A DNA stretch of 49,950 nt. Origin: a virus. The stretch is from the UHGV virus genome UHGV-0359583; one strand, 5' to 3'. Of this stretch, positions 2,931-17,258 are shown one piece after another. The notes under the pieces were generated by a model. It was not told where the DNA came from, made no database searches, and saw only the letters and a program-made list of their open reading frames with translations. Position numbers and translations under genes: made by a program. Numbering within the stretch: the stretch's first letter is position 1; each line of letters begins with the position of its first letter.

Positions 2931-4102
2931 TAAAAGCCACGTCCATCTGTGTCAGATGTAATATTTGTAGTTAGATCATCGAAAAATGCTGTTTGTGTTG
3001 GTTCGTTATCTTTCTCATGACTAGTGACAGGCTCTTTTGCTAATTCTTCTGGAACGATGATAGTTGTATCTGCTGTAGTTTCTTTATCGTGTTTCATAGT
3101 TTCTTGTGTAGCTTCGGACGGTTCTTCATCAAAATCGAATACCTCTTGTGCTGTTTGTTCTGTGACGTCTTTTCTAACTGATTTAACTACTTCGTCGTCT
3201 TGCGACTGATATTGCATAGCGACATAAGCATTCTCGAAGTTTTTAGGAATTTTCTTAACAATGTTGTTTCTCATTTTACGAACAATCATGGATTCTCTAC
3301 TTTGTGGAGATTTCCATGCGGGACTAATGTATGATTGATATTCTTGACTGTCTAAGATGTCATCTAAAGACATTGTTTTCAAATTGTTCATGATTTCTTG
3401 CTTTTTATTATCAATTTCCTGCTTTTGCTGATAACTTGCGTCTTTTTTCTTTTTAGCTATACCAAAAGTTTCATTCATAAGGTTCTGGTTTATATGAGCA
3501 ATTAAATTTTTAACAACATCCTCTCGTTCTGCAATGTGATACTCGATTGTACCGTCAGACATTTCAATAGGATAAACAACTCTAACTACTTTTCCTTTAC
3601 CAGTTGGCCCCCATTCTGGATCTGTCACTGATAATCCTTTATAACCTGGGTACGAAAAATGGTCTTCTTCTCTCACTTCCCAATGACGATGAACATGTTT
3701 TACGTTCCGTCCAAATTTTGAAAGGATAGCATCGTTTCCATCTCCTTCAATACCCATTTCAATTACTTTCACCCAATTATCTGATTGACCAAACTGTTTC
3801 CTATTAACATTTCTAGTCTGAAAATAGACTTCACGAGGAATAGCTGAAGCATTGACTTGTAATGCTGCAATTGTCATTAATGTTTCTGTCATATTTGTTG
3901 AATCTACATCATTAATTGACAAGTTTGAGTTTGTTAGCATTGTATTAATTCCTTGTATAGCGCTTATTACACATTGCTTTTGATATTCAGTCATATTTAT
4001 TCCATTACTCAATAGCTGTGATTCTACTTGTGGCATAAAGGTATCGTTAATTTTAGTTAATCTATTTCCGTAAATCTTATTTTCTGCAAGTTCATGTGTC
4101 AT
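2930..4102 (-). CDS. Hypothetical protein with an acidic C-terminal tail; possible recombination partner of the upstream ATPase
   Basis: No recognisable motif. The acidic tail reads '...FFDDLTTNITSDTDGRGF'. It lies in the recombination module. Confidence 0.4.
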   Translation of the reverse strand: MTHELAENKIYGNRLTKINDTFMPQVESQLLSNGINMTEYQKQCVISAIQGINTMLTNSNLSINDVDSTNMTETLMTIAALQVNASAIPREVYFQTRNVNRKQFGQSDNWVKVIEMGIEGDGNDAILSKFGRNVKHVHRHWEVREEDHFSYPGYKGLSVTDPEWGPTGKGKVVRVVYPIEMSDGTIEYHIAEREDVVKNLIAHINQNLMNETFGIAKKKKDASYQQKQEIDNKKQEIMNNLKTMSLDDILDSQEYQSYISPAWKSPQSRESMIVRKMRNNIVKKIPKNFENAYVAMQYQSQDDEVVKSVRKDVTEQTAQEVFDFDEEPSEATQETMKHDKETTADTTIIVPEELAKEPVTSHEKDNEPTQTAFFDDLTTNITSDTDGRGF

Positions 4103-6241
4103 CTATTTCCCCTCCGTTTTGTGATCTTGGATTCGTAAAGTTTTATCATCTTCATTTACATACATAGCAATAACTTGAGTGTCTACTTGAACAGAGTCTC
4201 TATTGTGATTAGTCAAACCTTCAGCGTTATCGATAAAAATTGGAACGATATAGCCTTCCTGTTTCATTAGAGTGTTGGATACGTCTAATCCAGCTTGCAT
4301 CCTGCTTCCGTTATTTAGAGAACTGAACGGTACCCCGTCAATCATCGGCTCACATACTGCTTCATTTAGTCCTCCATCTTCAAAGAAATCGAACAATTTC
4401 CATTTAACAACTGAGAAATGACTATTTATAATTTCTTGCAGCATGTTTTGTTTTGTTATAAAGAATTCTTCAAATAGTACTAATTTTTGTAATACTTCGC
4501 CTTTCTTATGAGATAATTGGCGCTCTTGTTCATTGAAATCTTCAATAATCAATAACTGCCTTTCATACTCTTTTAGCAAGGCTAATTTTTCATCAATCAT
4601 TGCGATTTCTTTATCTATTTCTGTAATCTCACTTGTTTTAGCGGAAGTTTGTTCTAGAATAGCTTTGTTACTTTGAGTAATGTACTCTTGCAATTTTTTT
4701 ATTTCTTTAGTTATAGTTGAATATTTTTCAGTTGCTTCAAATGGTATTTTGTCTAATTTTAATGAGGAAATCTGCTGCTCTACATCAGCTAAGTTTTCCT
4801 TCACATCTTCCAAGTGTTTTTTAGCAATGTTATATGCTTCTGTTTTAATCAATAGTTGTTCTTTTAACTCGCCGATTTCTTTTTTTAGGGCTTCGCGATC
4901 TTTGTTATTTTTAATACCTTTTTCTCGAATTTCAGAGAGCTTGATTTGCTTATCCGCTTCAAACTGGGCTTTTATTTCTTTATTTGTTGACTCAATTTCT
5001 TCTGCACGTTTTTGTTCTTCTTCCTCATGATGTCGTTTCATTTCATCTTGATCCTTGACATCATATGGACGATTACAGTGCTGACAAATTAAAAGATTTT
5101 CATTAAATGATAATTTGGTATAAACTAGACCGCCTGTAAATTCTTCAGCTTCTACTTCATCATATTTGTCGTACAATTCTTCATGCTTTTTATTTAATGC
5201 AATCAGTTCATTATCTTTTATAGAAACCAAACGTTCTGTTACATTAAGACTTGATTCTTCATCTGCATACGTCTTCTGGGCTTTATTGAGATCAGCAAAG
5301 AGTTTTGATTTACCTTGCTCAATGCCATTAATGCGAGCATTCTGTGCATTATCATGCTTCAATTTAGCAGCAGTTAATTCTTCTTGTTTTGTATTAAGAC
5401 TTGCAATTAATTCTGAAATATTACCACCATTTCTAATAGTAACGAGCTGGTTTTCGATGTCATTTTTCTTTAATGTCAACTCGTTACGAGTGGTTAATAG
5501 TTGCTCTTTGTTGATATTTTTAATATCTGGCAATGCTGCTTGAATACCTTCGATTTTTACAGGAATATTTTTCAGCGTTTCGTTGATTCGCTTTTGGTCT
5601 TGAAGCACACGATCACGAGCTGTTTTAATGTCATCATTGCCAATAATTTCTTTTAATTGTTGAATTGATGGTGTTTCGTTGATAATCTCTTCATCTGTCT
5701 TGCTGCCAAAGTATTCAAAAAGCTTTTGACGTCGTTCATCTGCCACTAACTGCTCACAAAAATAAGTCACACTAGTCAGATTCTTAAATGTGTCTTGATC
5801 TAATACTTTTTCTACTTCATCGTCAAATGCTTTCTTTGTGGTGGTCTCTAATCCGTCTACGAGGTATTTTGTAAACATCTCATAAGACTTGTGTTCCGAA
5901 TTTCGTTTGATGACTTCTTTGTCTCCTCGGACCTTTTCAAACTCCTTTGCCTGACCATTGATAGCTAAAACGACAGTTACTGATGTCTGTTTACCGCGAA
6001 TCGGCTCGCTATTTTCATCAAGTGGTCTCCACTGGATTTTAGTTCGTTCTTTTGAATCTTTGTTGAACAAGCACCAGAGAAAAGCATCATAGATAGTTGT
6101 TTTGCCTGCATCGTTGTCTCCAAAAACATCAATACTTTTACCATTTGGTTCAATCATCAGGTCCGATATACCTTTAAAATTATGAATACGGATTGACTCC
6201 AAGCTAATGTTTTTCATACAATTAATCTCCTTCAATTTCAA
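4103..6241 (-). CDS. SbcC/Rad50-like SMC-family ATPase
   Basis: N-terminal Walker A 'GDNDAGKTT'. A long coiled coil with a central CxxC 'CQHCNRPY' (zinc-hook-like). C-terminal 'IVPIFIDNAEG' resembles Walker B. Confidence 0.6.
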   Translation of the reverse strand: MKLKEINCMKNISLESIRIHNFKGISDLMIEPNGKSIDVFGDNDAGKTTIYDAFLWCLFNKDSKERTKIQWRPLDENSEPIRGKQTSVTVVLAINGQAKEFEKVRGDKEVIKRNSEHKSYEMFTKYLVDGLETTTKKAFDDEVEKVLDQDTFKNLTSVTYFCEQLVADERRQKLFEYFGSKTDEEIINETPSIQQLKEIIGNDDIKTARDRVLQDQKRINETLKNIPVKIEGIQAALPDIKNINKEQLLTTRNELTLKKNDIENQLVTIRNGGNISELIASLNTKQEELTAAKLKHDNAQNARINGIEQGKSKLFADLNKAQKTYADEESSLNVTERLVSIKDNELIALNKKHEELYDKYDEVEAEEFTGGLVYTKLSFNENLLICQHCNRPYDVKDQDEMKRHHEEEEQKRAEEIESTNKEIKAQFEADKQIKLSEIREKGIKNNKDREALKKEIGELKEQLLIKTEAYNIAKKHLEDVKENLADVEQQISSLKLDKIPFEATEKYSTITKEIKKLQEYITQSNKAILEQTSAKTSEITEIDKEIAMIDEKLALLKEYERQLLIIEDFNEQERQLSHKKGEVLQKLVLFEEFFITKQNMLQEIINSHFSVVKWKLFDFFEDGGLNEAVCEPMIDGVPFSSLNNGSRMQAGLDVSNTLMKQEGYIVPIFIDNAEGLTNHNRDSVQVDTQVIAMYVNEDDKTLRIQDHKTEGK

Positions 6242-6512
6242 TATTGTCTTCTAAGATTGCTCGTATAACTGTTTCTTTGCGTTTGTTACAAATTTCAGTA
6301 GCAACATCATACCAAGCACTACTATGATTTTGATTCAGCTCTGTTGTTAAATCATATCTATAACTTTTACTAATTATTGGATCGACTAACCAATCCATAC
6401 GTGCAATTAACGCTGTAGTGTATAATTCTCGTTCTGCGCAATTTTCAGTTGCGTTTTTAAACCATTCTTCAAACCGTTTTGACATGGTTAATTTATTTGA
6501 CTCATTATCCAT
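6222..6512 (-). CDS. Hypothetical protein
   Basis: ORF track; 20-nt overlap with the upstream gene. Confidence 0.45.
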   Translation of the reverse strand: MDNESNKLTMSKRFEEWFKNATENCAERELYTTALIARMDWLVDPIISKSYRYDLTTELNQNHSSAWYDVATEICNKRKETVIRAILEDNIEIEGD

Positions 6513-6567
6513 TTCATTTCCTCCAGTTTTTATGTTATAATTCTCGTGTATAATTTTTGTATGGGAC

Positions 6568-6798
6568 TTAATCGTTTGTGGACGAATGAGTCCCTTTTTT
6601 TGTGTAAGCTAAATATTTTGCATTGTCGTATTTCGCATCATCGTATTTCATGAACCAAACGACTGAAATTGGTCCAATAATTAAAGATAGATAACTAGCT
6701 GGTACACTATTTTTAATTATCAATCCTAAAATAAATACAACAATAAACGCTCCTGAAATTCTAACTTCATACAAACTTTTTAGTTTTCTACGTTTCAT
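6568..6798 (-). CDS. Small membrane protein
   Basis: Hydrophobic segment 'GAFIVVFILGLII...SLIIGPISVVWF'. Confidence 0.45.
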   Translation of the reverse strand: MKRRKLKSLYEVRISGAFIVVFILGLIIKNSVPASYLSLIIGPISVVWFMKYDDAKYDNAKYLAYTKKGTHSSTND

Positions 6799-8353: not shown

Positions 8354-8677
8354 ATGTTCGGTACACGTTTAACAGAATTAAGGAAACAAAAAAAATTAAC
8401 ACAAACTGATGTTGCAAATGCACTTGGTGTAGCTAGAACGACTTACTCTTCCTATGAACAAGGAAGAAGAACTCCAGATATAGATATCCAAAATAAGATT
8501 GCTGACTATTTCAATGTAAGTTTAGATTATTTACATGGGAGAGAAAGTTTTGAAGATACTTCCTTATCAAAAAAACAATTAACCGTCGCTGCTCATATAG
8601 ACGATGACGTTTCAGATACAGAAATGAATGAGATTCTCTCTTTCATTGATTATATTAAGAAACGCGATCACAAATAA
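8354..8677 (+). CDS. XRE-family phage repressor (ImmR/CI-like)
   Basis: AGGAGG SD. HTH 'LTQTDVANALGVARTTYSSYEQGRR'. It is followed by an ImmA-like gene. Confidence 0.75.
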   Translation: MFGTRLTELRKQKKLTQTDVANALGVARTTYSSYEQGRRTPDIDIQNKIADYFNVSLDYLHGRESFEDTSLSKKQLTVAAHIDDDVSDTEMNEILSFIDYIKKRDHK

Positions 8678-9858: not shown

Positions 9859-11427
9859 ATGGATAATTTTTTAACTCCTTTATTGAATAAAGCAGACTCC
9901 ATGCCGTTTTTATTTCTTGGTTCAGGTTTTTCAAGACGTTACTTAAATACTCCCACATGGGAAGAATTATTAAAACATATTGCACAAATAACATATCAAA
10001 ACAATACTGGGTTTCAAAAAGCAAAACGTAAGGCTTCTAAACTTTATGATGAAAACCTTGCATATAATAAGCATATGACATACCTTTGTGACCTTATCTC
10101 CGATGACTTAGATGAAATTTGGTACGATGATCCTCGTTTTGAAGAAAACAGAAATCGATATTGGGATCTTGTTGAAAATGATTCTACTCCGCCTGTAAAA
10201 ATTGAAATTGCTTGTTATCTAGAAAAATTTCAAAAATTTACCGAAGAAAACATTTTAGAATTAGATGCATTAAAAAAAATAACACCTAACTCAATTGCAG
10301 GTATTATTACGACAAATTATGATACATTACAAGAACAACTTTTTGATTATGAAGTATATTCATCACAAGAAGAACTCTTATTCCATACAAAATATGATAT
10401 AGGTGAAATTTATAAAATTCACGGATGTATTAAAAACCCAAATTCAATTCTTATTAATTCAGACGATTATAAACAAATTGAACTTAAACACAAATATATT
10501 GCAGCTAAATTATTAACTATTTTTGTCGAACACCCTATTTTCTTTTTAGGGTACTCTCTTGGTGATGAGGACATACGAAATATATTGAATGATATTCAAA
10601 TTTCTCTTACTTCAAAGCAATTAAAAGAAATTGAAGATAGATTATTTTATGTGGTTTGGGATGAATCTCAAGAACATTTTTCTCATTCTACACATAGTAT
10701 AAACTTTGATAACGGTAGAAGTATAACAATTAAACAAATTTCATTAAATGACTATTCATTTTTATACAACGCTTTAAGCAAAAACAAATCACGTTACCCA
10801 GTTAAAATGTTACGTCACGTAAAGGAAGATATGTATAATCTTGTTTTGACTAATGATCCTACCGAGAGGATGTTATTAACAATACCTGATAAAGAATTAT
10901 CAAAAGAAGAGATGGAAAAGATTGAGTTTGTATATGGGTTTGGCATTATGGAAAGAGCTCGAAATGGTTATAAAATAGTTTCAACTGAAGAAATATATAA
11001 AGATGCAGTATTTGACACCGCTAACTTAAATCCTGAACTATTTGTAAAAGAAACCCTAACTTATGCACTACAAAAAAGCAGTGGTTATATACCAATTAGA
11101 AAGTACACTTCACAGGTTGAATACTCATCTTTACCCAAACAAGTTAAAGATAATCTAAAAAGATTTAATAAAATTGACGATTTGTTAAGTCAAAAATTGA
11201 TTGGCTATAAGCGTTCATTAACTGTACCACCTACTTTTAATGATGCGTTAAAAAGTCCTTCAAAAATGATTTATGACAATCTATCGATAGTTTCTTATAA
11301 TAGTAATAATATTGAATTATTGGGTGATTATCTCAAAAATATTCTAGACAAAGACGAATTTACCACTACAACTGAAATCAGAAGGTTGATACGAATCTAT
11401 GATTATTTTAAATACAAAAAAAGCTAA
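9859..11427 (+). CDS. SIR2-family (ThsA-like, SIR2_2-type) putative NADase with a non-SLOG C-terminal domain
   Basis: Motifs 'LFLGSGFS', 'IITTNYDTL', 'IYKIHGCIKNPNSILINSDDYK' and 'IFFLGYSLGDEDIRNIL' match ThsA SIR2 'IFAGAGLS', 'TTNYD', 'VYKMHGDV...LIKDDYEK' and 'FLFVGFSFTDPNLDYIL'. RBS is GGTGAT. Confidence 0.65.
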   Translation: MDNFLTPLLNKADSMPFLFLGSGFSRRYLNTPTWEELLKHIAQITYQNNTGFQKAKRKASKLYDENLAYNKHMTYLCDLISDDLDEIWYDDPRFEENRNRYWDLVENDSTPPVKIEIACYLEKFQKFTEENILELDALKKITPNSIAGIITTNYDTLQEQLFDYEVYSSQEELLFHTKYDIGEIYKIHGCIKNPNSILINSDDYKQIELKHKYIAAKLLTIFVEHPIFFLGYSLGDEDIRNILNDIQISLTSKQLKEIEDRLFYVVWDESQEHFSHSTHSINFDNGRSITIKQISLNDYSFLYNALSKNKSRYPVKMLRHVKEDMYNLVLTNDPTERMLLTIPDKELSKEEMEKIEFVYGFGIMERARNGYKIVSTEEIYKDAVFDTANLNPELFVKETLTYALQKSSGYIPIRKYTSQVEYSSLPKQVKDNLKRFNKIDDLLSQKLIGYKRSLTVPPTFNDALKSPSKMIYDNLSIVSYNSNNIELLGDYLKNILDKDEFTTTTEIRRLIRIYDYFKYKKS

Positions 11428-11940: not shown

Positions 11941-13167
11941 ATGGCTTCAATCAAATCTTATACACTAAAGAATGGTCAAGAACGTTGGGAATACTTCGTT
12001 TCAAATGGACGTAGCAATGGTACTGGCAGGCAACAAAAAATACACAAGAGAGGTTTTAGAAGTCATAAGGAAGCTTTGAAGGCTGCAAAAATAATTGAAG
12101 GGCAAATTGCATCTGAGGAATTCGTTAAAGAAAACCCACAAAAAATGACTATTTCAAAATTTATGAATATATGGATCAATGAGTATAAAAACAATGTTAA
12201 GGAAGGATCACGAATTGTCTATCGAGATGCTATCCGTATGTATATTGATCCATATATAGGAAATTATCAATTAAATAAATATAAACCTGCAGATCACCAA
12301 AAATTTATTAATAGCTTATTTACGAATAAAGAATTAGGAAAAAATAAAAACGGCCTCAGTTATAACACAGTAAAAATTGTAAATGCCGCCTTGTCCAATG
12401 CTTTCAAAAAGGCACAAAAATTAGGTTATGTAAAAAGTAATCCGACCTACTTAGTAGAGTTTCCATTAGATAAAGTAAAAGAAAAAAATAATAAAGAAAA
12501 GAAACTAGAATTCTATACTTTAGAACAGGAAAATCTGTTCCTCGACACTGCAAGAAATTTTGATGAGTATATGTGGTATGTATTTTTTTTAATTATTTTT
12601 GATTTAGGATTGAGAAAAGGTGAAGTAATGGCCTTACGATGGTTTAACTTTGATTTTAGAGATAATATTCTCACATTTGACAAGCAACGTTTATATAGAA
12701 AAGAGCGACCTGGTCAAGTAATTTTAGATGACGTTAAAACTGACGCTGGAAAAAGAAGTTTAAAAATGACAAACAGAGTAAGAAATTCCGTATTAGAATT
12801 ATATGGCATTAATTACGATCTCACAAATAATGTATTACCAATGACAAAATCAAACAAAGATTTTTTGTTTATAAATAATAGAGGAAAAAATGTCGGCTTA
12901 CCAATACGCCAACGTTCTGTAGATACTGCTTGGCACCGAATTATTAATAAAGCTCAATTACCAAAAATTAGAATTCATGACGGTCGCCATACTAATGCTG
13001 CTCGTTTACGACAAGCAGGAGTTCCACTTGAGGATATTAAAGACATGCTTGGTCATAAGAACGTTAAAACAACTGAGATATATGCACACGTATCTGCTGA
13101 AGTTAAAGAACGAGCTGTAAATAAACTTGAATTATATCAAATGCAAAACAAAAAATCAGGTAACTAA
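11941..13167 (+). CDS. int: Tyrosine recombinase (phage integrase)
   Basis: C-terminal catalytic region 'RHTNAARLRQAGVPLEDIKDMLGHKNVKTTEIYAHV'. Confidence 0.85.
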   Translation: MASIKSYTLKNGQERWEYFVSNGRSNGTGRQQKIHKRGFRSHKEALKAAKIIEGQIASEEFVKENPQKMTISKFMNIWINEYKNNVKEGSRIVYRDAIRMYIDPYIGNYQLNKYKPADHQKFINSLFTNKELGKNKNGLSYNTVKIVNAALSNAFKKAQKLGYVKSNPTYLVEFPLDKVKEKNNKEKKLEFYTLEQENLFLDTARNFDEYMWYVFFLIIFDLGLRKGEVMALRWFNFDFRDNILTFDKQRLYRKERPGQVILDDVKTDAGKRSLKMTNRVRNSVLELYGINYDLTNNVLPMTKSNKDFLFINNRGKNVGLPIRQRSVDTAWHRIINKAQLPKIRIHDGRHTNAARLRQAGVPLEDIKDMLGHKNVKTTEIYAHVSAEVKERAVNKLELYQMQNKKSGN

Positions 13168-13190
13168 AACGTTACCTGATTTTATTTATA
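13157..13190 (+). terminator. Rho-independent terminator overlapping the int stop codon
   Basis: CAGGTAAC-taaaac-GTTACCTG followed by ATTTTATTTAT. Confidence 0.55.
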
Positions 13191-13192
13191 AA

Positions 13193-13485
13193 TGTATCAC
13201 CAAATGTATCACCAAAAATATTTCAAAGCAAACATCTTTGTATCACCACAAAGCTAAAAATCAGCTTAGAATGCTATTTTATAGGCGTGCATTCAAATCT
13301 TTTGCTAATTCTTCAAAACCTGGTTTACCTAATAAAGCGAACATGTTGCGTTTGTTAGTTGAAATTTTTCCATAGATTTCATTCTTTCCAATTACTTATA
13401 TATCAATGATTTATTAGTTATTGAAGTCTTTCACTATTTACATTTTTTTCATAGATATTTTAGATGTATCACCAAATGTATCACC
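13193..13485. repeat. Five copies of TGTATCACC (two tandem pairs plus one) and three CATAGAT motifs; candidate integrase arm-type sites / attP region
   Basis: TGTATCACC at 13193, 13205, 13239, 13465 and 13477. TTCATAGAT-like motifs at about 13367, 13449 and 13499. Confidence 0.5.
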
Positions 13486-13578
13486 ATTTATTTTTATCAT
13501 TTCATAGATTTACAAAAATTCCCTATAGACAAAACGAACATACATTCGATATAATTATATTACTAGGAGGGCGATAGT

Positions 13579-13827
13579 ATGAAAACTAATTATGTAGGAG
13601 TAGTCGAAAAGATTAGAATGTTAAGTATGCACCCAAAAATGCTTGTTCGATTCTCATTAGTAACACCGGACGAAACTATAAACTGTATCGTCTCCAAACA
13701 CGAGCTGGCAAATACGCTACTAATGTTACCTGAAAAATCTGAACTAGCTGTCTATGGTCATTTGAATAAACGAAATCAACTTGTCATTGATAAAATGCTT
13801 GTAAGAAATTTTTTGATTAGTGTATAA
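13579..13827 (+). CDS. Hypothetical 82-aa protein; a stand-alone gene between the att region and a bidirectional terminator
   Basis: Strong SD AGGAGGG; the terminator follows immediately. Confidence 0.5.
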   Translation: MKTNYVGVVEKIRMLSMHPKMLVRFSLVTPDETINCIVSKHELANTLLMLPEKSELAVYGHLNKRNQLVIDKMLVRNFLISV

Positions 13828-13870
13828 AAAATAAGCCTCGCTCTCTATATGGAGCGAGGCTTTCTTTATT
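13826..13870. terminator. Bidirectional rho-independent terminator
   Basis: AAGCCTCGCTC-tctatatg-GAGCGAGGCTT (perfect 11-bp stem) flanked by A-rich and T-rich tracts. Confidence 0.7.
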
Positions 13871-14003
13871 GACCGTCTAAGCAGTCATCTTCAATTTCAA
13901 CATATTGTATTATCATGTTTACGTCACTGATATACAGCACTTTCTTCATGAGCTCTTTTTCTGATATTTCTTTTAGCTTTAAAAAAAGATCAAATGCGTT
14001 CAT
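13867..14003 (-). CDS. Small ORF (45 aa), third gene of the accessory cassette
   Basis: Its ATG follows the upstream gene's TAG stop directly (TAGATG). It ends at the terminator. Translation: MNAFDLFLKLKEISEKELMKKVLYISDVNMIIQYVEIEDDCLDGQ. Confidence 0.35.
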
Positions 14004-14894
14004 CTAAGCTAGTACTTTTTCCAATTCTTCAACTGGCTGCGCATACTTCTCTATGTGAATCAAATCTTCATTGAAGGATTGTTCTCCTTGAGTGCTAAAT
14101 ATATCATAAGCAATAACTCTTTCGTCTTTACTAGTTAAATAATTTATCATTTGATCTAACGTGCCATCAATATTAGACTCACTCAAAGAATTGTATACTA
14201 AAGTAAACTTATCCGCTTTATAATAATTGTCCGTTATAAAACTCATTCTTTCAAGCCAATCATAAGATGATGTAATTTTATCAGGAGCAGATTGAATAAA
14301 CTCTAATCCATGATCAAATTTATAACCAAAATCAATACTATATGATTTTGGAAGTTCCTTAACAGGCTTAATTTTTATATTTTTCTTGATTAATTTATCC
14401 AAATTATTTTTTTTATTTATTAACTGTATAGCTTTCTTTTTAACAACCATAGAGTTGCTACCAAGCTCTTCATTTAAAAATTTGCTCCCTACGTATTCTT
14501 CAAGCAAATTATTAAATAATAGGTCGACATTACTTGATTTAGCGAAGCGAACATCAGAAAATACAAAACCTTTTGGAAGGTTCTGACTTACAAATTGATT
14601 TATAAATGTCTCAGAAGACGGGTTTAAGCCAAAGCTTAAATTATTATTATCTACAGACTTTAAAATATGATTAAAAACGTCATGACCTAACTTATATGTT
14701 TTTTCGTCAACTTTCGAATTCAAAATTGCCTTAAATTTACTATTTTTTGGGGTTAATATCTGGTATTTTACTTCCCCACTTGAGGGTATGTTCATAACTA
14801 TGCCTATATTGATTATTTCGCCTTTTACAACATTTGAAATATATCTAATTATTGAATACCAGACGACTCTTCGTTGCTGTATGATTCGTTCCAC
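14004..14894 (-). CDS. DUF3037-like protein; downstream partner of the HipA-like kinase
   Basis: N-terminus 'VVWYSIIRYISNVVKGEIINIGIVM' resembles the DUF3037 family opening (from memory). GTG start with a GGAGGT SD inside the last 46 nt of the upstream gene. Confidence 0.45.
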   Translation of the reverse strand: MERIIQQRRVVWYSIIRYISNVVKGEIINIGIVMNIPSSGEVKYQILTPKNSKFKAILNSKVDEKTYKLGHDVFNHILKSVDNNNLSFGLNPSSETFINQFVSQNLPKGFVFSDVRFAKSSNVDLLFNNLLEEYVGSKFLNEELGSNSMVVKKKAIQLINKKNNLDKLIKKNIKIKPVKELPKSYSIDFGYKFDHGLEFIQSAPDKITSSYDWLERMSFITDNYYKADKFTLVYNSLSESNIDGTLDQMINYLTSKDERVIAYDIFSTQGEQSFNEDLIHIEKYAQPVEELEKVLA

Positions 14895-15826
14895 AATAAA
14901 TCACCTCCAGTATGATTGGAAAATAAATTGGCCCTTACGATTTTATTTATTATATCCTTTACTATCAGCCTTTGTCTACTAAGAAAATCCAAATAAACTT
15001 TCCGTTGTTGATCTCCAGATATTGTCCATTCTTCTGGTATCTCTCCTAAAATAAAAGTTAGTTCATCTTTACTAATCTTTTCTATTGAATCAATAATTCT
15101 GCAAAAAGGGTTATTACCTGTCAAATCAATATTATTCTGCATTCCTTGAAATACAGGTCCGAAGGTAAACCCCCCACCATGTCTCCTGAACTGGTTCAAA
15201 AGCCACTCATCATAATTGGGATTTTCATTAACTTTCAATAACTTCATTTTTGCTGTATCAAAATTAGGAGTGCCAAAGGCGTGTCCATGATCTATGGCAT
15301 AAACTTTTCTTAAACCCGATTCACTCCCAATCAAAAGGTTACCAAGATTAGAAAATCGATCACAATTTTGAACAAATATATCGAACGCAATTATATCAGC
15401 ATATGCTTCTGGATTCGAAACATTGTTTAAATACCCTGTCCAAGTCCTTTTAACTTTTGGTAAACCATTATTTACACCGAGTGAAATACTCTCAGCTAAA
15501 TTGTCTTCTACATCATTCACTTCTTCAGTCGCGAAATACAATCCTGGTTTAAACTTTCTGCTAAACATTAACTCAGCATTAGCTTCTATAAAATCCTTCT
15601 CCAATTCAATTATAGCAAAATTAGGCACTGGCACCTTTAGATGTTTAGCTAACAGCGAGCACAATAGTTCCTGAAAAAACACAGCATTCTGCTTTGTTGA
15701 GTTAACTATCTCAGTTTTTAAAAAGTATCTTTTTCCATTTTCTGCCGTTATTTTTATAGGCTTAGATTGACCAACTTTAGGAGATGGTTCATTCAAATAC
15801 GTTTCAGCAAAAAACTTATCTACCAT
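14849..15826 (-). CDS. HipA-family (HipT-like short form) serine/threonine kinase-like protein
   Basis: 'VGQSKPIKI' matches the HipA P-loop-like region. 'QELLCSLLAKHLKVPVP' matches 'NEYLTMKLAEAAGIPVP'. 'FVQNCDRFSNLGNLL' resembles the catalytic loop 'IGNTDDHLKNFSLL'. 'AIDHGHAFG' resembles IDFGH. GAGGAG SD. Confidence 0.6.
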   Translation of the reverse strand: MVDKFFAETYLNEPSPKVGQSKPIKITAENGKRYFLKTEIVNSTKQNAVFFQELLCSLLAKHLKVPVPNFAIIELEKDFIEANAELMFSRKFKPGLYFATEEVNDVEDNLAESISLGVNNGLPKVKRTWTGYLNNVSNPEAYADIIAFDIFVQNCDRFSNLGNLLIGSESGLRKVYAIDHGHAFGTPNFDTAKMKLLKVNENPNYDEWLLNQFRRHGGGFTFGPVFQGMQNNIDLTGNNPFCRIIDSIEKISKDELTFILGEIPEEWTISGDQQRKVYLDFLSRQRLIVKDIINKIVRANLFSNHTGGDLLWNESYSNEESSGIQ

Positions 15827-15870
15827 ATTCTTTTCTCCTCATTAATGATTTATATCTACTTACTATTATT

Positions 15871-15912
15871 AAACCAAAAAGAAGTTGCAAAAACAAGCGT
15901 TTTTGCAACTTC
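15871..15912 (-). terminator. Rho-independent terminator (minus strand) between tRNA-Met and the kinase cassette
   Basis: Perfect 14-bp stem GAAGTTGCAAAAAC / GTTTTTGCAACTTC with a 4-nt loop, followed by TTTTTGGTTT on the minus strand. Confidence 0.7.
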
Positions 15913-15984
15913 TATAGCAGATATAATCATATGAGGATTATTTATCAATTATAACAAACACTCGTTCGTAAATCAATGATTTTA

Positions 15985-16058
15985 TGGACCATGACGGATT
16001 CGAACCATCGACCGAACGGTTATGAGCCGTTTGCTCTAACCAACTGAGCTAATGGTCC
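15985..16058 (-). tRNA. tRNA-Met (CAT anticodon; could be an Ile-lysidine type), with no encoded CCA
   Basis: 7-bp acceptor stem GGACCAT/ATGGTCC. D-arm GCTCAGTTGGTTAGAGC. Anticodon stem-loop AACGG-CTCATAA-CCGTT. T-arm GATGG-TTCGAAT-CCGTC. Confidence 0.8.
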
Positions 16059-16151
16059 TGAAAAGAGCCGCCTTGGGGAAGGCGACTCAAGAGAAATTTA
16101 AATAAGTGTAAGTTTATTCTAAACTAAGGGTTACAGAAAATCAAGCTGTTC

Positions 16152-17258
16152 TTAATATCCAGTACCCCAAGTGTTTGATGGATTGCCATCATTTGGACCA
16201 ACAGGAATGTAAATTCTAGTTCCGTTTGAATCAGAACCACCTAAAAAAACATAGCCATCTGCTACACGAACTGAATCATACTTAAAAGTAGAACCTTTCG
16301 GCCATACTCCGTAAACGGGCGCTGACAAGCTCGGCGCACCGTTGCGAAGAACAATGCCTTCATTTACGCCAATGGTGAATGTTTTAGCTGGTGTTGGTTT
16401 GCTACTTTCCCACAATTCCGCAATATCACCATCGTTTGCATAACCTAGTAATTTGCCGCTGTTTTCGATACGATATAAATTTTTACGACCGTCTAGTTTT
16501 TGTGTAATTGTTCCAACTTGCGTCCACAAACTATCTGCATTGATATGTTGGCTAATTGGCGCATCTGGATTTTTGTAGATTGTTGTGAAGCGAACGTGTT
16601 GACCTACTTTATATTTTGGTGCGTTCGGCTTTCCAGGGTTCACAATCGTTTCTGAGCCATCTTCTGGCAATCCTGTTTGCAAATCTTGGGCTAACTGTGC
16701 CTTATTGATGCCCCACTGCGCTAAATATCCGTAAGGGTCTGTATGATCGCCCCACCAATTTTTAGTAATCCAATCATGCGTTACGATTCCGTATCCTGTT
16801 CCATCATCCAAGTCAAATGTTGCACCAATTTGTGTTGCTAAATCACGAATCAAATTGACATAGGCAGCATAGTCTTTCTTGAATGTTTCTTTATTATTCG
16901 TTCGAGCAAGTTCGATCTGTGCATATGCTTTTGCATTGGCTGTTGCTCCTGCACCCCACTGAATTTGACCAGCTGGCGCTAACTGCTTCACTCGACCGCC
17001 AGAACCGACAAAATATGAAACATAAGCACTCGTCCAGTTTCGTTTCATATATGCCGTTTCATTGTCTAGACTGTTTGGGCCAACGTTGTTCCCATTTCCT
17101 GATTCATGTAAGACAATTAATTCGTTAGTCGCATAACCTGGAAAATATCCGCCAAAATCGATAGGATCTTGTTCCACTTGATAAGCATCTGCGGCAGTTG
17201 GTAACAATAATCCTGTAACTACAACTAATGATAATAAAAACTTACTAAATTTTTTCAT
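16152..17258 (-). CDS. Endolysin: Sec-signal N-acetylmuramoyl-L-alanine amidase (Amidase_2-like) with C-terminal SH3b-like repeats
   Basis: Signal peptide 'MKKFSKFLLSLVVVTGLLLPTAADA'. Amidase-like motifs 'IVLHESGNGNN', 'NAKAYAQIELA' and 'IVTHDWITKNWWGDHTDP'. It lies in the lysis module after the holin. Confidence 0.7.
   Translation of the reverse strand: MKKFSKFLLSLVVVTGLLLPTAADAYQVEQDPIDFGGYFPGYATNELIVLHESGNGNNVGPNSLDNETAYMKRNWTSAYVSYFVGSGGRVKQLAPAGQIQWGAGATANAKAYAQIELARTNNKETFKKDYAAYVNLIRDLATQIGATFDLDDGTGYGIVTHDWITKNWWGDHTDPYGYLAQWGINKAQLAQDLQTGLPEDGSETIVNPGKPNAPKYKVGQHVRFTTIYKNPDAPISQHINADSLWTQVGTITQKLDGRKNLYRIENSGKLLGYANDGDIAELWESSKPTPAKTFTIGVNEGIVLRNGAPSLSAPVYGVWPKGSTFKYDSVRVADGYVFLGGSDSNGTRIYIPVGPNDGNPSNTWGTGY

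What the first reader, a model, noticed from the sequence alone, without database searches (positions are those of the whole stretch)
13867..15826. Insulated operon coupling a short HipA/HipT-like kinase to a DUF3037-like protein (plus a 45-aa ORF) in the prophage moron slot
This region holds three co-oriented minus-strand genes:
- a 325-aa protein at 14849-15826;
- a 296-aa protein at 14004-14894, whose GTG start and GGAGGT SD lie inside the last 46 nt of the first gene, which implies translational coupling;
- a 45-aa ORF at 13867-14003 whose ATG directly follows the TAG stop of the second gene.

The block is bracketed by two near-perfect hairpin terminators (15871-15912 and 13826-13870). It sits between the lysis cassette/tRNA-Met and the int-proximal att repeats. 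That is the classic position for an accessory or defence moron.

The 325-aa protein carries the HipA kinase signature elements (see the feature entry). At 325 aa it lacks the HipA N-terminal subdomain and so resembles HipT-type kinases.

The partner protein opens with 'VVWYSIIRYISNVVKGEIINIGIVM'. I recognise this as a DUF3037-type N-terminus, but that rests on memory and is not verified. There is no upstream HTH HipB and no HipS-like gene, so this is not a canonical hipBA or hipBST arrangement.

Hypothesis: a kinase toxin plus a DUF3037 antitoxin or sensor, acting as a phage-encoded toxin-antitoxin or abortive-infection / anti-phage module.
Basis: partly seen in the sequence, partly recalled or inferred. 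Interest (0 to 1): 0.85.

Follow-up and report, generated by a model that had tools for sequence, protein, structure and literature searches.

The report
Phage-borne HipA-like kinase/DUF3037 defence pair
A temperate Enterococcus phage carries a two-gene cassette, a HipA-like protein kinase and a DUF3037 partner, that is a distant Gram-positive relative of the recently validated E. coli anti-phage toxin-antitoxin system called PDC-M66, DS-6 or HipAD, so it is real but belongs to a known kind.

Summary
The two large ORFs are real, intact and under purifying selection. The 325-aa protein passes Pfam HipA_2 (PF20613), not HipA_C. The 296-aa protein passes DUF3037. Both hit the two PADLOC models of candidate system PDC-M66.

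This gene pair is already published. It is PADLOC PDC-M66, and it was validated as DS-6/HipAD in E. coli and as the functional core of the Retron-Sda1 operon. In those systems the kinase is required for defence, and deleting DUF3037 is toxic.

The window proteins are homologous to DS-6A (25% identity, EIPEEW motif shared, catalytic D139 = D156 here) and to DS-6B (profile-profile probability 99.4%).

In 36 of 36 loci retrieved with the kinase alone, a DUF3037 gene follows directly. In 33 of them it overlaps the kinase's 3' end by 31-58 nt. In two both genes are frameshifted, and in one a 20-nt gap separates them. The pairs usually sit after a phage lysin or before an integrase.

The 45-aa ORF is not a gene. 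An 89-nt indel destroys it in the closest relatives. HipT resemblance is weak; the nearest solved fold is H. pylori CtkA.

New here: a longer-kinase Bacillota phage lineage, and a restriction-endonuclease-like fold without a catalytic motif in the partner's C-terminal half.

Verdict: new member of a known kind, modest interest.

The parts
15880..15913 (-). Intrinsic terminator upstream of the cassette. It ends the lysis/tRNA-Met transcript and insulates the pair.
   Evidence: 15-bp perfect stem followed by a T-run. Folding gives -21.8 kcal/mol, z -6.4, and 0 of 200 shuffles fold as well.
15849..15877 (-). Candidate weak promoter, read by eye: TTGGTT, 17-nt spacer, TATAAA. It lies between the terminator and the kinase SD. 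Inferred only.
   Evidence: Read directly from the sequence. It is below the threshold of the promoter scan (the -35 matches 3 of 6). That scan found no enrichment of promoter-like sites (17 found, 16.2 expected).
14849..15826 (-). HipA_2-family Ser/Thr-type kinase, 325 aa, the predicted toxin/effector. Key residues: G19-x-S21-x-P23 loop, K37, E53, catalytic D156 in NCDRF, N163, D179 in AIDHGH, the I263-P264-x-x-W267 (EIPEEW) motif, and a lineage-specific C-terminal tail F302-x-N304-x-x-G307-G308-x-L310-x-W312.
   Evidence: Pfam PF20613 at 6.2e-18 and 65 bits, cut-off 27. PADLOC PDC-M66A at 6.3e-12. phrog_3162 at 2e-38. Invariant columns are listed. The AF2 model has pLDDT 85.5 and pTM 0.87. 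Foldseek hits are CtkA, PI4KII, CotH, Fam20, HipA and HipT. BLASTP against the validated DS-6A gives 25% identity over residues 19-269, E 1e-9.
14904..14908 (-). GGAGG Shine-Dalgarno sequence of the partner gene. It is embedded in kinase codons G307-G308. The partner's start codon (GTG, 14892-14894) shares its TG with kinase codon W312.
   Evidence: Sequence. The same GGAGG/GGGAGG followed by a start is found in 33 intact overlapping pairs with 31-58 nt overlap.
14004..14894 (-). DUF3037-family partner, 296 aa, the predicted antitoxin/sensor. The N-domain (about residues 9-145) is DUF3037, with E26, N29, G31, K53, Y134 and G136 conserved. The C-domain (about 150-296) has a restriction-endonuclease-like alpha-beta-beta-beta-alpha-beta fold, with D188, P204 and W213 conserved and no (D/E)xK motif.
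13866..14003 (-). 45-aa open frame. It is not a conserved gene and is best read as the 3' UTR between the partner's stop codon and the terminator.
   Evidence: Destroyed by an 89-nt indel in L001 and L002, which encode the identical partner protein. Absent in L024. No tblastn homologue in any other locus. No family hit in any library.
13833..13862 (.). Bidirectional intrinsic terminator closing the cassette. It is shared with the convergent 82-aa ORF at 13579-13827 (+).
   Evidence: Called on both strands. Folding gives -22.8 kcal/mol on the minus strand and -21.7 kcal/mol on the plus strand, z -7.6 and -6.3.

Best explanation
The cassette is a two-gene, translationally coupled kinase/DUF3037 module of the PDC-M66 = DS-6 = HipAD type. 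It is carried as an accessory (moron) gene pair by a temperate Enterococcus faecalis-type phage, between the lysis genes/tRNA-Met and attP.

Shown here:
- Family membership of both proteins.
- Intact catalytic motifs.
- Strict genetic linkage and a conserved gene overlap.
- Purifying selection on both genes.
- Mobility of the pair between unrelated prophage backbones.

Inferred from experiments on homologues:
- The kinase is a growth-arresting toxin whose activity depends on D156.
- The DUF3037 protein is made in step with the kinase through the internal SD and overlapping start. It binds and neutralises the kinase through its conserved N-terminal DUF3037 domain.
- Infection by another phage releases or activates the kinase. 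The kinase then phosphorylates an essential host or phage target and aborts the infection, protecting the lysogen population.

Inferred from the structure model only:
- The partner's C-terminal domain is a catalytically degenerate restriction-endonuclease-like fold. It most likely serves as the nucleic-acid-binding or trigger-sensing part, and perhaps as an autoregulatory DNA binder.

The kinase's substrate and the trigger are unknown for the whole family.
For: - Domain hits exceed curated thresholds, and both PADLOC PDC-M66 models are hit.
- Homology to the experimentally validated E. coli DS-6A and DS-6B is clear. BLASTP gives E 1e-9 over residues 19-269, including EIPEEW. hhalign gives 96.7% for the kinase. 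It gives 95.8% for the partner against the single DS-6B sequence and 99.4% against a DS-6B-group profile.
- D156 aligns with D139 of DS-6A. D139A is the only DS-6 mutant listed in the paper's strain table, and its text reports that the catalytic mutant loses defence.
- Published genetics support the roles. Deleting the kinase abolishes defence, deleting DUF3037 is toxic, and DUF3037 is strongly associated with HipA-like genes (PMC12548924). AF3 predicts an A-B interaction (ipTM 0.76-0.79) and a B-DNA interaction (0.67) (PMC13092281).
- All 36 loci found with the kinase alone have a DUF3037 gene immediately downstream. All 26 partners tested hit Pfam DUF3037. The overlap with an internal GGAGG is conserved.
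- dN/dS is 0.085 for the kinase and 0.073 for the partner.
- The context is typical of accessory genes. The nearest upstream gene is often a peptidoglycan hydrolase (Amidase_2 in 6, Amidase_3 in 3, Amidase_5 in 2 and Peptidase_M23 in 1 of 31 loci). The nearest downstream gene is a tyrosine integrase in 12 of 25 loci. The pair occurs with different lysins, holins and integrases. One locus sits next to a type I HsdR gene.
- The kinase fold lies in the HipA/CtkA/PI4K-like atypical kinase superfamily.
- Terminators bracket the pair.
- GC is 29% for the partner and 34% for the kinase, against 41% for the adjacent lysin.
Against: - No experiment exists for this lineage. Identity to the validated E. 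coli proteins is only 17-25%.
- The PADLOC hits cover only about 55-60% of each model.
- Similarity of the partner's C-terminal domain to that of DS-6B is not significant on its own (hhalign probability 6%). No member hits DUF1829.
- The kinase is 76 aa longer than DS-6A, with a conserved tail of unknown role.
- No promoter is securely identified between the upstream terminator and the kinase, so expression in the lysogen is assumed.
- Neither protein has any tblastn match in 50,697 deposited phage genomes. The evidence for phage carriage comes from prophage and IMG/VR contigs only.
- A TA module on a prophage could serve prophage maintenance rather than defence.
Confidence: 0.75

Rival explanations
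1. The pair is a prophage-addiction or maintenance toxin-antitoxin module rather than an anti-phage defence. Loss of the prophage would leave a stable kinase and a decaying partner, killing cured cells.
For: The toxin/neutraliser logic is the same one inferred from homologues. The pair sits next to attP and the integrase. The pair decays as a unit in L020 and L050, where both genes are frameshifted.
Against: Homologous pairs give measurable protection against phage when cloned away from any prophage. The pair also occurs in a defence-island-like context next to a type I HsdR gene. In this phage a second defence candidate, SIR2/PDC-S25, sits on the other side of attP, which is the pattern typical of prophage defence cargo.
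Confidence: 0.12
2. The roles are reversed. The DUF3037 protein is the effector, a nuclease acting through its restriction-endonuclease-like C-domain, and the kinase is the sensor or regulator that switches it on by phosphorylation.
Against: No (D/E)xK or equivalent motif is conserved after D188. D188 is not conserved in the DS-6B group alignment. In homologues, deleting DUF3037 is toxic and deleting the kinase merely abolishes defence. That is the opposite of what is expected if DUF3037 were the killer.
Confidence: 0.08
3. The kinase is a phage-benefit or lysogenic-conversion factor that phosphorylates host proteins to reprogramme the cell. DUF3037 is its cofactor or substrate, and there is no toxin/antitoxin or immunity role.
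For: The nearest solved structure is H. pylori CtkA, deposited as a 'proinflammatory kinase' and not a TA toxin. The cassette follows the late operon, so it could be co-expressed late by read-through.
Against: A strong terminator separates it from the late genes. The published phenotypes of homologues are toxicity and defence. The strict two-gene linkage with translational coupling is typical of toxin-neutraliser pairs.
Confidence: 0.05

Closest known systems
PDC-M66 (PADLOC-DB v2 candidate) = DS-6 (DefensePredictor, Science 2026, PMC13092281) = HipAD (Brenes & Laub, Cell Host Microbe 2025, cited in PMC13092281). It is also the HipA-like/DUF3037 pair inside the Retron-Sda1 operon (PLoS Biol 2025, PMC12548924).
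   Same: - The gene order is the same: kinase first, DUF3037 second, with overlapping reading frames.
- The kinase is of the HipA_2 type, with the same catalytic Asp (D156 = D139) and the same EIPEEW motif.
- The partner has a DUF3037 N-domain followed by a second domain of about 140 aa.
- Carriage on a prophage is implied by the title of the Brenes & Laub paper; that paper was not readable here.
- Both PADLOC models are hit.
   Different: - Identity is only 17-25%.
- The host is Bacillota rather than Proteobacteria or Bacteroidota.
- The kinase is 325 aa against 249 aa. It has an insertion around residues 186-250 and a conserved C-terminal tail, FSNHxGGxLxW.
- The overlap is 31-58 nt with an internal SD, against 4 nt in DS-6 (gene coordinates).
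- The partner's C-domain is not detectably similar by sequence, and no member hits DUF1829.
- There is no experimental test of this lineage.
Canonical HipBA (E. coli K-12 HipA with the HTH antitoxin HipB)
   Same: It shares the atypical-kinase superfamily fold (HipA 3tpv, 2wiu and 3dnv appear among the Foldseek hits) and the toxin-kinase logic.
   Different: - The kinase fails Pfam HipA_C and has no HipA N-terminal domain.
- There is no upstream HTH antitoxin. The neutraliser is downstream and unrelated (DUF3037).
- The structural match is weak (TM about 0.35).
HipBST (HipT kinase with HipS and HipB)
   Same: It is a short kinase lacking the HipA N-subdomain, and HipT (8ezr) is a weak Foldseek hit (E 1.8e-3).
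   Different: There is no HipS-like or HipB-like gene. CtkA and PI4KII match better than HipT.
H. pylori CtkA (PDB 3akj, 3akk, 3akl)
   Same: It is the best solved structural neighbour of the kinase (Foldseek E 1.6e-6, TM 0.46-0.59).
   Different: Identity is 13-15%. The PDB sequence search with the kinase profile returned no CtkA chain at E <= 1. No DUF3037-type partner is mentioned in the PDB descriptions of CtkA; its gene neighbourhood was not examined here.
PD-(D/E)XK restriction-endonuclease-like domains (BstEII, BsoBI, PspGI, and the nuclease domain of Can2/Card1)
   Same: The partner's C-domain has the alpha-beta-beta-beta-alpha-beta core and an invariant Asp on the second strand.
   Different: No conserved (D/E)xK motif is present, so it is probably non-catalytic.

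Membership tests
PDC-M66 / DS-6 / HipAD kinase-DUF3037 defence system | A kinase of the HipA_2 (PF20613) type with an intact catalytic Asp | tested here: met
   PF20613 at 6.2e-18, 65 bits against a cut-off of 27. D156 aligns with DS-6A D139, and K37, N163 and D179 are invariant.
PDC-M66 / DS-6 / HipAD kinase-DUF3037 defence system | A DUF3037 (PF11236) protein encoded immediately downstream on the same strand | tested here: met
   PF11236 at 28.2 bits against a cut-off of 22.6. The genes overlap by 46 nt. All 36 kinase-found loci have the partner.
PDC-M66 / DS-6 / HipAD kinase-DUF3037 defence system | Matches to both PADLOC models (PDC-M66A and PDC-M66B) | tested here: met
   E-values of 6.3e-12 and 8.2e-10. 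The matches cover only model positions 25-174 of 270 and 6-171 of 281. The PADLOC pipeline itself, with its coverage rules, was not run.
PDC-M66 / DS-6 / HipAD kinase-DUF3037 defence system | Sequence homology to the experimentally validated proteins DS-6A (WP_000389051.1) and DS-6B (WP_000210934.1) | tested here: met
   Kinase: BLASTP E 1e-9 and 25% identity over residues 19-269; hhalign 96.7%. Partner: hhalign 95.8% against the single DS-6B sequence and 99.4%, E 2e-21, against a DS-6B-group profile over residues 8-269 vs 2-262.
PDC-M66 / DS-6 / HipAD kinase-DUF3037 defence system | The partner's second (C-terminal) domain is equivalent to that of DS-6B, which is weakly DUF1829-like (HHpred 0.78 in the paper's table) | tested here: inconclusive
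   None of 26 partners hit DUF1829. The C-domain profiles compared alone give probability 6%. However, the domains are collinear, similar in length, and share the W213 and P204 positions in the full-length alignment.
PDC-M66 / DS-6 / HipAD kinase-DUF3037 defence system | The kinase is toxic, the partner neutralises it, and the pair protects against phage | not testable with these tools
   Known only for homologues (PMC12548924; PMC13092281).
Canonical HipBA | HipA_C (PF07804) catalytic domain together with a HipA N-terminal domain | tested here: not met
   PF07804 gives E 0.086 and 12.9 bits against a cut-off of 30.5. No HipA_N hit was found.
Canonical HipBA | An upstream HTH (HipB) antitoxin gene | tested here: not met
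   Upstream of the kinase lie a terminator, tRNA-Met and the lysin. There is no HTH ORF.
HipBST | A HipS-like gene supplying the missing N-subdomain, plus HipB | tested here: not met
   Only two conserved genes are present, and the partner is DUF3037. The HipT fold match is weak (E 1.8e-3).
PD-(D/E)XK nuclease superfamily (partner C-domain) | The alpha-beta-beta-beta-alpha-beta core fold | tested here: met
PD-(D/E)XK nuclease superfamily (partner C-domain) | The conserved catalytic D...(D/E)xK motif | tested here: not met
   Only D188, P204 and W213 are conserved at 93% or more in 94 sequences. There is no conserved acidic-x-Lys on the third strand.

The most novel reading that the evidence does not exclude
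In this Bacillota phage lineage the DUF3037 protein may be a two-domain sensor-antitoxin. Its N-domain would clamp the kinase, possibly through the kinase's lineage-specific conserved tail FSNHxGGxLxW. Its catalytically dead restriction-endonuclease-like C-domain would recognise an invading phage's DNA, RNA or a phage protein and release the kinase. That would be a trigger mechanism not yet described for any HipA-type kinase system, and it might involve a substrate other than the aminoacyl-tRNA synthetases targeted by HipA and HipT.
Probability: 0.3. Interest if true: 0.55.

Novelty: new member of a known kind. Interest (0 to 1): 0.3.

Why it matters
The finding extends a recently validated defence system, so far tested only in E. 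coli, to temperate phages of enterococci, lactobacilli, carnobacteria, bacilli and clostridia. Prophage-encoded immunity in these hosts affects phage therapy and dairy or fermentation strains.

It also offers two testable leads for a family whose trigger and substrate are unknown. One is the nuclease-like but motif-less C-domain of the DUF3037 partner. The other is the conserved kinase tail that doubles as the partner's ribosome-binding site.

As a discovery in itself it is ordinary. The gene pair, its linkage and its TA-like defence role are already published.

Tried and rejected
- 45-aa ORF as a third component: rejected. An 89-nt indel breaks it in relatives with the identical partner protein, and no homologues exist elsewhere.
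- Convergent 82-aa ORF (13579-13827) as an associated gene: rejected. It is present only in the closest relatives L001-L003, plus one weak hit in L015.
- Deposited phage genomes: megablast of the cassette and tblastn of both proteins against 50,697 records gave no match. The late region has only a 4% match, to an E. faecalis phage.
- Solved structures: sequence search of PDB with both profiles found nothing significant.
- Structure libraries: afdb50 was unavailable.
- Literature: the Brenes & Laub HipAD paper is not held in the library. Searches for 'HipAD' gave no further mechanistic source.
- RNA elements: an Rfam scan of 13100-16200 found only the tRNA above threshold.
- Promoters: the promoter scan showed no enrichment. 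The listed site at 15948-15976 lies upstream of the terminator, so it cannot simply drive the pair.
- HipT-like classification: rejected, because CtkA and PI4KII are closer.
- CARF-like reading of the partner's N-domain, suggested by long Can2 alignments in Foldseek: rejected. RMSD is 13-14 Å and TM 0.2-0.3, and the first three strands form a beta-meander that is not Rossmann-like.
Full report
**Observation**

The minus strand between 13.8 and 15.9 kb holds a 325-aa ORF (14849-15826, ATG, GAGGAG SD) and a 296-aa ORF (14004-14894, GTG). The second starts 46 nt before the first ends. Its GGAGG SD (14904-14908) lies inside the first gene.

A 15-bp perfect hairpin with a T-run (15880-15913; -21.8 kcal/mol, z -6.4) precedes the pair. 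A bidirectional hairpin (13833-13862; -22.8 kcal/mol, z -7.6) follows it.

- tRNA-Met at 15985-16058
- an Amidase_2/SH3_5 lysin at 16152-17258
- a tyrosine integrase at 11941-13167
- repeated TGTATCACCA arm-type motifs at 13186-13252 and 13458-13495

The lysogeny module lies on one side of these repeats and the lysis genes on the other. It comprises an HTH repressor (8354-8677), an ImmA-like peptidase, a DUF4352 protein, a SIR2 protein and the integrase. The window therefore looks like a temperate phage genome with an intact attP rather than a prophage junction. The kinase is 99% identical to an Enterococcus faecalis protein.

**The 45-aa ORF is not a gene**

Contigs L001 and L002 encode the identical 296-aa protein but lack 89 nt in this spacer, so the frame closes after five codons. 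L024, whose kinase is 95% identical, has unrelated sequence there. tblastn finds no homologue in any of 50 related loci, and no profile library hits it. The segment is 3' UTR in front of the terminator.

The convergent 82-aa ORF at 13579-13827 occurs only in the nearest relatives. The unit is therefore two genes.

**What the proteins are**

The 325-aa protein passes Pfam HipA_2 (PF20613; 6e-18, 65 bits against a cut-off of 27). It fails HipA_C (12.9 bits against 30.5).

The 296-aa protein passes DUF3037 (PF11236; 28.2 bits against 22.6) over residues 13-79.

Both proteins hit the two models of one PADLOC candidate system: PDC-M66A at 6e-12 and PDC-M66B at 8e-10. They also hit two PHROGs of unknown function.

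An alignment of 19 kinases (33-65% identity) has these invariant residues:
- G19, S21 (nearly invariant) and P23, forming a Gly-rich loop
- K37 and E53
- D156, R157, N160, G162 and N163 (the NCDRF..N.GN motif)
- A177, D179, G181 and H182 (the AIDHGH motif)
- I263, P264 and W267
- a C-terminal F302-x-N304-x-x-G307-G308-x-L310-x-W312 tail

The AF2 model is confident (pLDDT 85.5, pTM 0.87). Its best solved neighbours are H. pylori CtkA (E 1.6e-6, TM 0.46-0.59) and PI4KII-alpha. CotH, Fam20, HipA (3tpv) and HipT (8ezr, E 1.8e-3) rank behind them. This places the kinase in the HipA/PI3-4K-like atypical kinase superfamily. It is not specifically HipT-like.

**Already known**

The library holds three relevant papers.

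- PMC12548924 (PLoS Biol 2025) found a HipA-like/DUF3037 pair inside the Retron-Sda1 operon. It noted that PADLOC calls the pair PDC-M66 and that DUF3037 is strongly associated with HipA-like genes. Deleting the kinase abolished defence against phage Bas51, and deleting DUF3037 was toxic. The retron parts were dispensable.
- PMC13092281 (Science 2026) validated the E. coli pair DS-6. It states that the same system was found independently and named HipAD by Brenes & Laub 2025, and reports that a mutation of a predicted catalytic residue in DS-6A loses defence. The paper's strain table lists D139A as the only DS-6 mutant. AF3 predicts an A-B interaction (ipTM 0.76-0.79) and a B-DNA interaction (0.67).
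- The Brenes & Laub paper itself is not held.

**Direct comparison with the validated proteins**

The DS-6 sequences come from the Science paper's supplement.

- The window kinase aligns with DS-6A at 25% identity over residues 19-269 vs 24-224 (E 1e-9). The alignment includes the identical EIPEEW motif, and D156 aligns with D139.
- I built a profile of 94 window-like partners and a profile of DS-6B plus 19 relatives. The relatives were recovered from the exhaustive representative search. The two profiles align at probability 99.4% and E 2e-21 over residues 8-269 vs 2-262.
- The N-domains alone give 99.5%. The C-domains alone give only 6%.

**Linkage survey**

Searching with the kinase alone returned 9 loci from GTDB species genomes and 27 from IMG/VR. 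The species genomes came from Carnobacterium, Enterococcus, Bacillus, Ornithinibacillus, Cellulosilyticum, Clostridium, two Limosilactobacillus species and an Eremiobacterota MAG.

- In 35 loci an HMM of the partner finds an ORF directly downstream. The 36th locus (L023) has one too (hhalign 92%).
- In 33 loci the partner overlaps the kinase's 3' end by 31-58 nt and is preceded by GGAGG or GGGAGG. In two loci both genes are frameshifted, and in L023 a 20-nt gap separates them.
- That SD is encoded by the invariant G307-G308 codons, and the partner's start codon shares its TG with the W312 codon. Part of the 'conserved tail' is therefore dual-coding.
- All 26 partners tested hit Pfam DUF3037, and none hits DUF1829.
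- Against the 94%-identical L024 copy, dN/dS is 0.085 for the kinase and 0.073 for the partner.

Context also fits an accessory gene pair.
- Among 31 loci the nearest upstream gene often carries a peptidoglycan-hydrolase domain (Amidase_2 in 6, Amidase_3 in 3, Amidase_5 in 2, Peptidase_M23 in 1). The nearest downstream gene is a tyrosine integrase in 12 of 25 loci, and once a type I HsdR gene.
- The identical E. avium-type pair sits behind three different lysin/holin sets. The pair therefore moves as a cassette between phage backbones.
- The full-length partner family is small. Among 1.84 billion representatives, 228 clusters score E <= 1e-3 and 47 score E <= 1e-30.

**The partner's structure**

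AF2 gives two confident domains with a loose relative orientation (pLDDT 87.8, pTM 0.52).

The C-terminal half has an alpha-beta-beta-beta-alpha-beta order of elements (H149-160, E170-175, E185-193, E196-202, H207-223, E227-234).
- Foldseek independently returns Can2, Cdn1, OkrAI, PspGI, Bax1 and Cas4.
- Neither tool reports aligned ranges. Assigning the hits to the C-domain therefore rests on topology.

D188 on the second strand is 100% conserved in 94 sequences, but no (D/E)xK follows. Only P204 and W213 are otherwise conserved in this domain. D188 is not conserved in the DS-6B group alignment. I read the domain as a degenerate nuclease fold used for binding, not cleavage.

**Mechanism**

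Shown here: family membership, intact catalytic motifs, obligate linkage with translational coupling, purifying selection and a mobile-cassette context.

Inferred from the homologues' genetics: the kinase is the toxin or effector, the DUF3037 protein neutralises it, and phage infection unleashes the kinase to abort the infection.

Inferred from the model only: the N-terminal DUF3037 domain is the conserved kinase-binding part, because it is the part shared with DS-6B. The variable nuclease-like C-domain is the sensing or DNA-binding part.

Unknown: the substrate, the trigger and the promoter. The only scan-level promoter-like site nearby (15948-15976) lies upstream of the terminator. A weak TTGGTT-17-TATAAA at 15849-15877 is my own reading of the sequence.

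**Rivals**

- A prophage-addiction role is not excluded.
- A reversed-role model, with the partner as nuclease effector, is contradicted by the missing catalytic motif and by the toxicity of deleting DUF3037 in homologues.
- A host-reprogramming kinase model is contradicted by the insulation from the late operon and by the published phenotypes.

**Verdict**

The arrangement is no longer new. It is a distant Bacillota-phage member of PDC-M66/DS-6/HipAD.

The residual interest lies in three things: the untested Gram-positive lineage, the longer kinase with its dual-coding tail, and the nuclease-like partner domain as a lead to the unknown trigger.

Noticed in passing
window 9859-11427 (+): A 522-aa SIR2_2 protein sits between the ImmA/DUF4352 genes and the integrase. 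It matches the PADLOC candidate PDC-S25 almost full-length (E 1.8e-142) and matches ThsA and Dsr1 weakly. The phage therefore carries a second defence candidate on the other side of attP.
   Followed up: partly
window 13186-13252 and 13458-13495: There are four to five copies of TGTATCACCA, in two blocks of tandem ATGTATCACCA, just after the integrase stop codon. They are probably arm-type integrase binding sites of an intact attP, which implies the window is a phage (or circularly permuted) genome rather than an integrated junction.
   Followed up: partly
window 13915-14003 vs L001:6900-6940: An 89-nt indel in the 3' UTR of the partner gene distinguishes the window from contigs that encode the identical protein. 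This indel creates the spurious 45-aa ORF.
   Followed up: yes
window 14892-14908 and kinase residues 302-312: The region is dual-coding. Invariant kinase codons G307-G308 spell the partner's GGAGG SD, and the W312 codon supplies the TG of the partner's start. This holds across 33 loci with 31-58 nt overlaps. F302, N304 and L310 are also invariant, so the tail is constrained at the protein level as well.
   Followed up: partly
L020 (Limosilactobacillus agrestis) 5070-6752; L050 4965-6787: Both the kinase and the partner are broken into fragments in these loci. The pair appears to decay as a unit.
   Followed up: no
L023 (Eremiobacterota MAG) 3269-6598: This is a distant pair (kinase 27% identical) with a 20-nt gap instead of an overlap. 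The 546-aa ORF upstream looks Cas1-like by eye, which was not tested.
   Followed up: no
L021 6940-9696 (-): The pair lies next to a type I restriction R subunit (HSDR_N, ResIII, EcoR124_C). This is a defence-island-like context rather than a prophage end.
   Followed up: no
window 13579-13827 (+): An 82-aa ORF is convergent with the pair and shares its bidirectional terminator. It has weak sub-threshold OB-fold hits and is conserved only in the closest relatives.
   Followed up: partly
window 44114-44200 (-) and 15985-16058 (-): The phage carries two tRNA genes, tRNA-Lys(ttt) and tRNA-Met(cat). The tRNA-Met gene lies between the lysin and the cassette.
   Followed up: no
window 4103-6241 (-): A 712-aa AAA_23/SMC_N ATPase in the early region has weak PADLOC hits to LmuB, PbeC, PtuA and GajA (best 8e-10). 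It is more likely a phage recombination or early ATPase than a defence gene, but this was not resolved.
   Followed up: no
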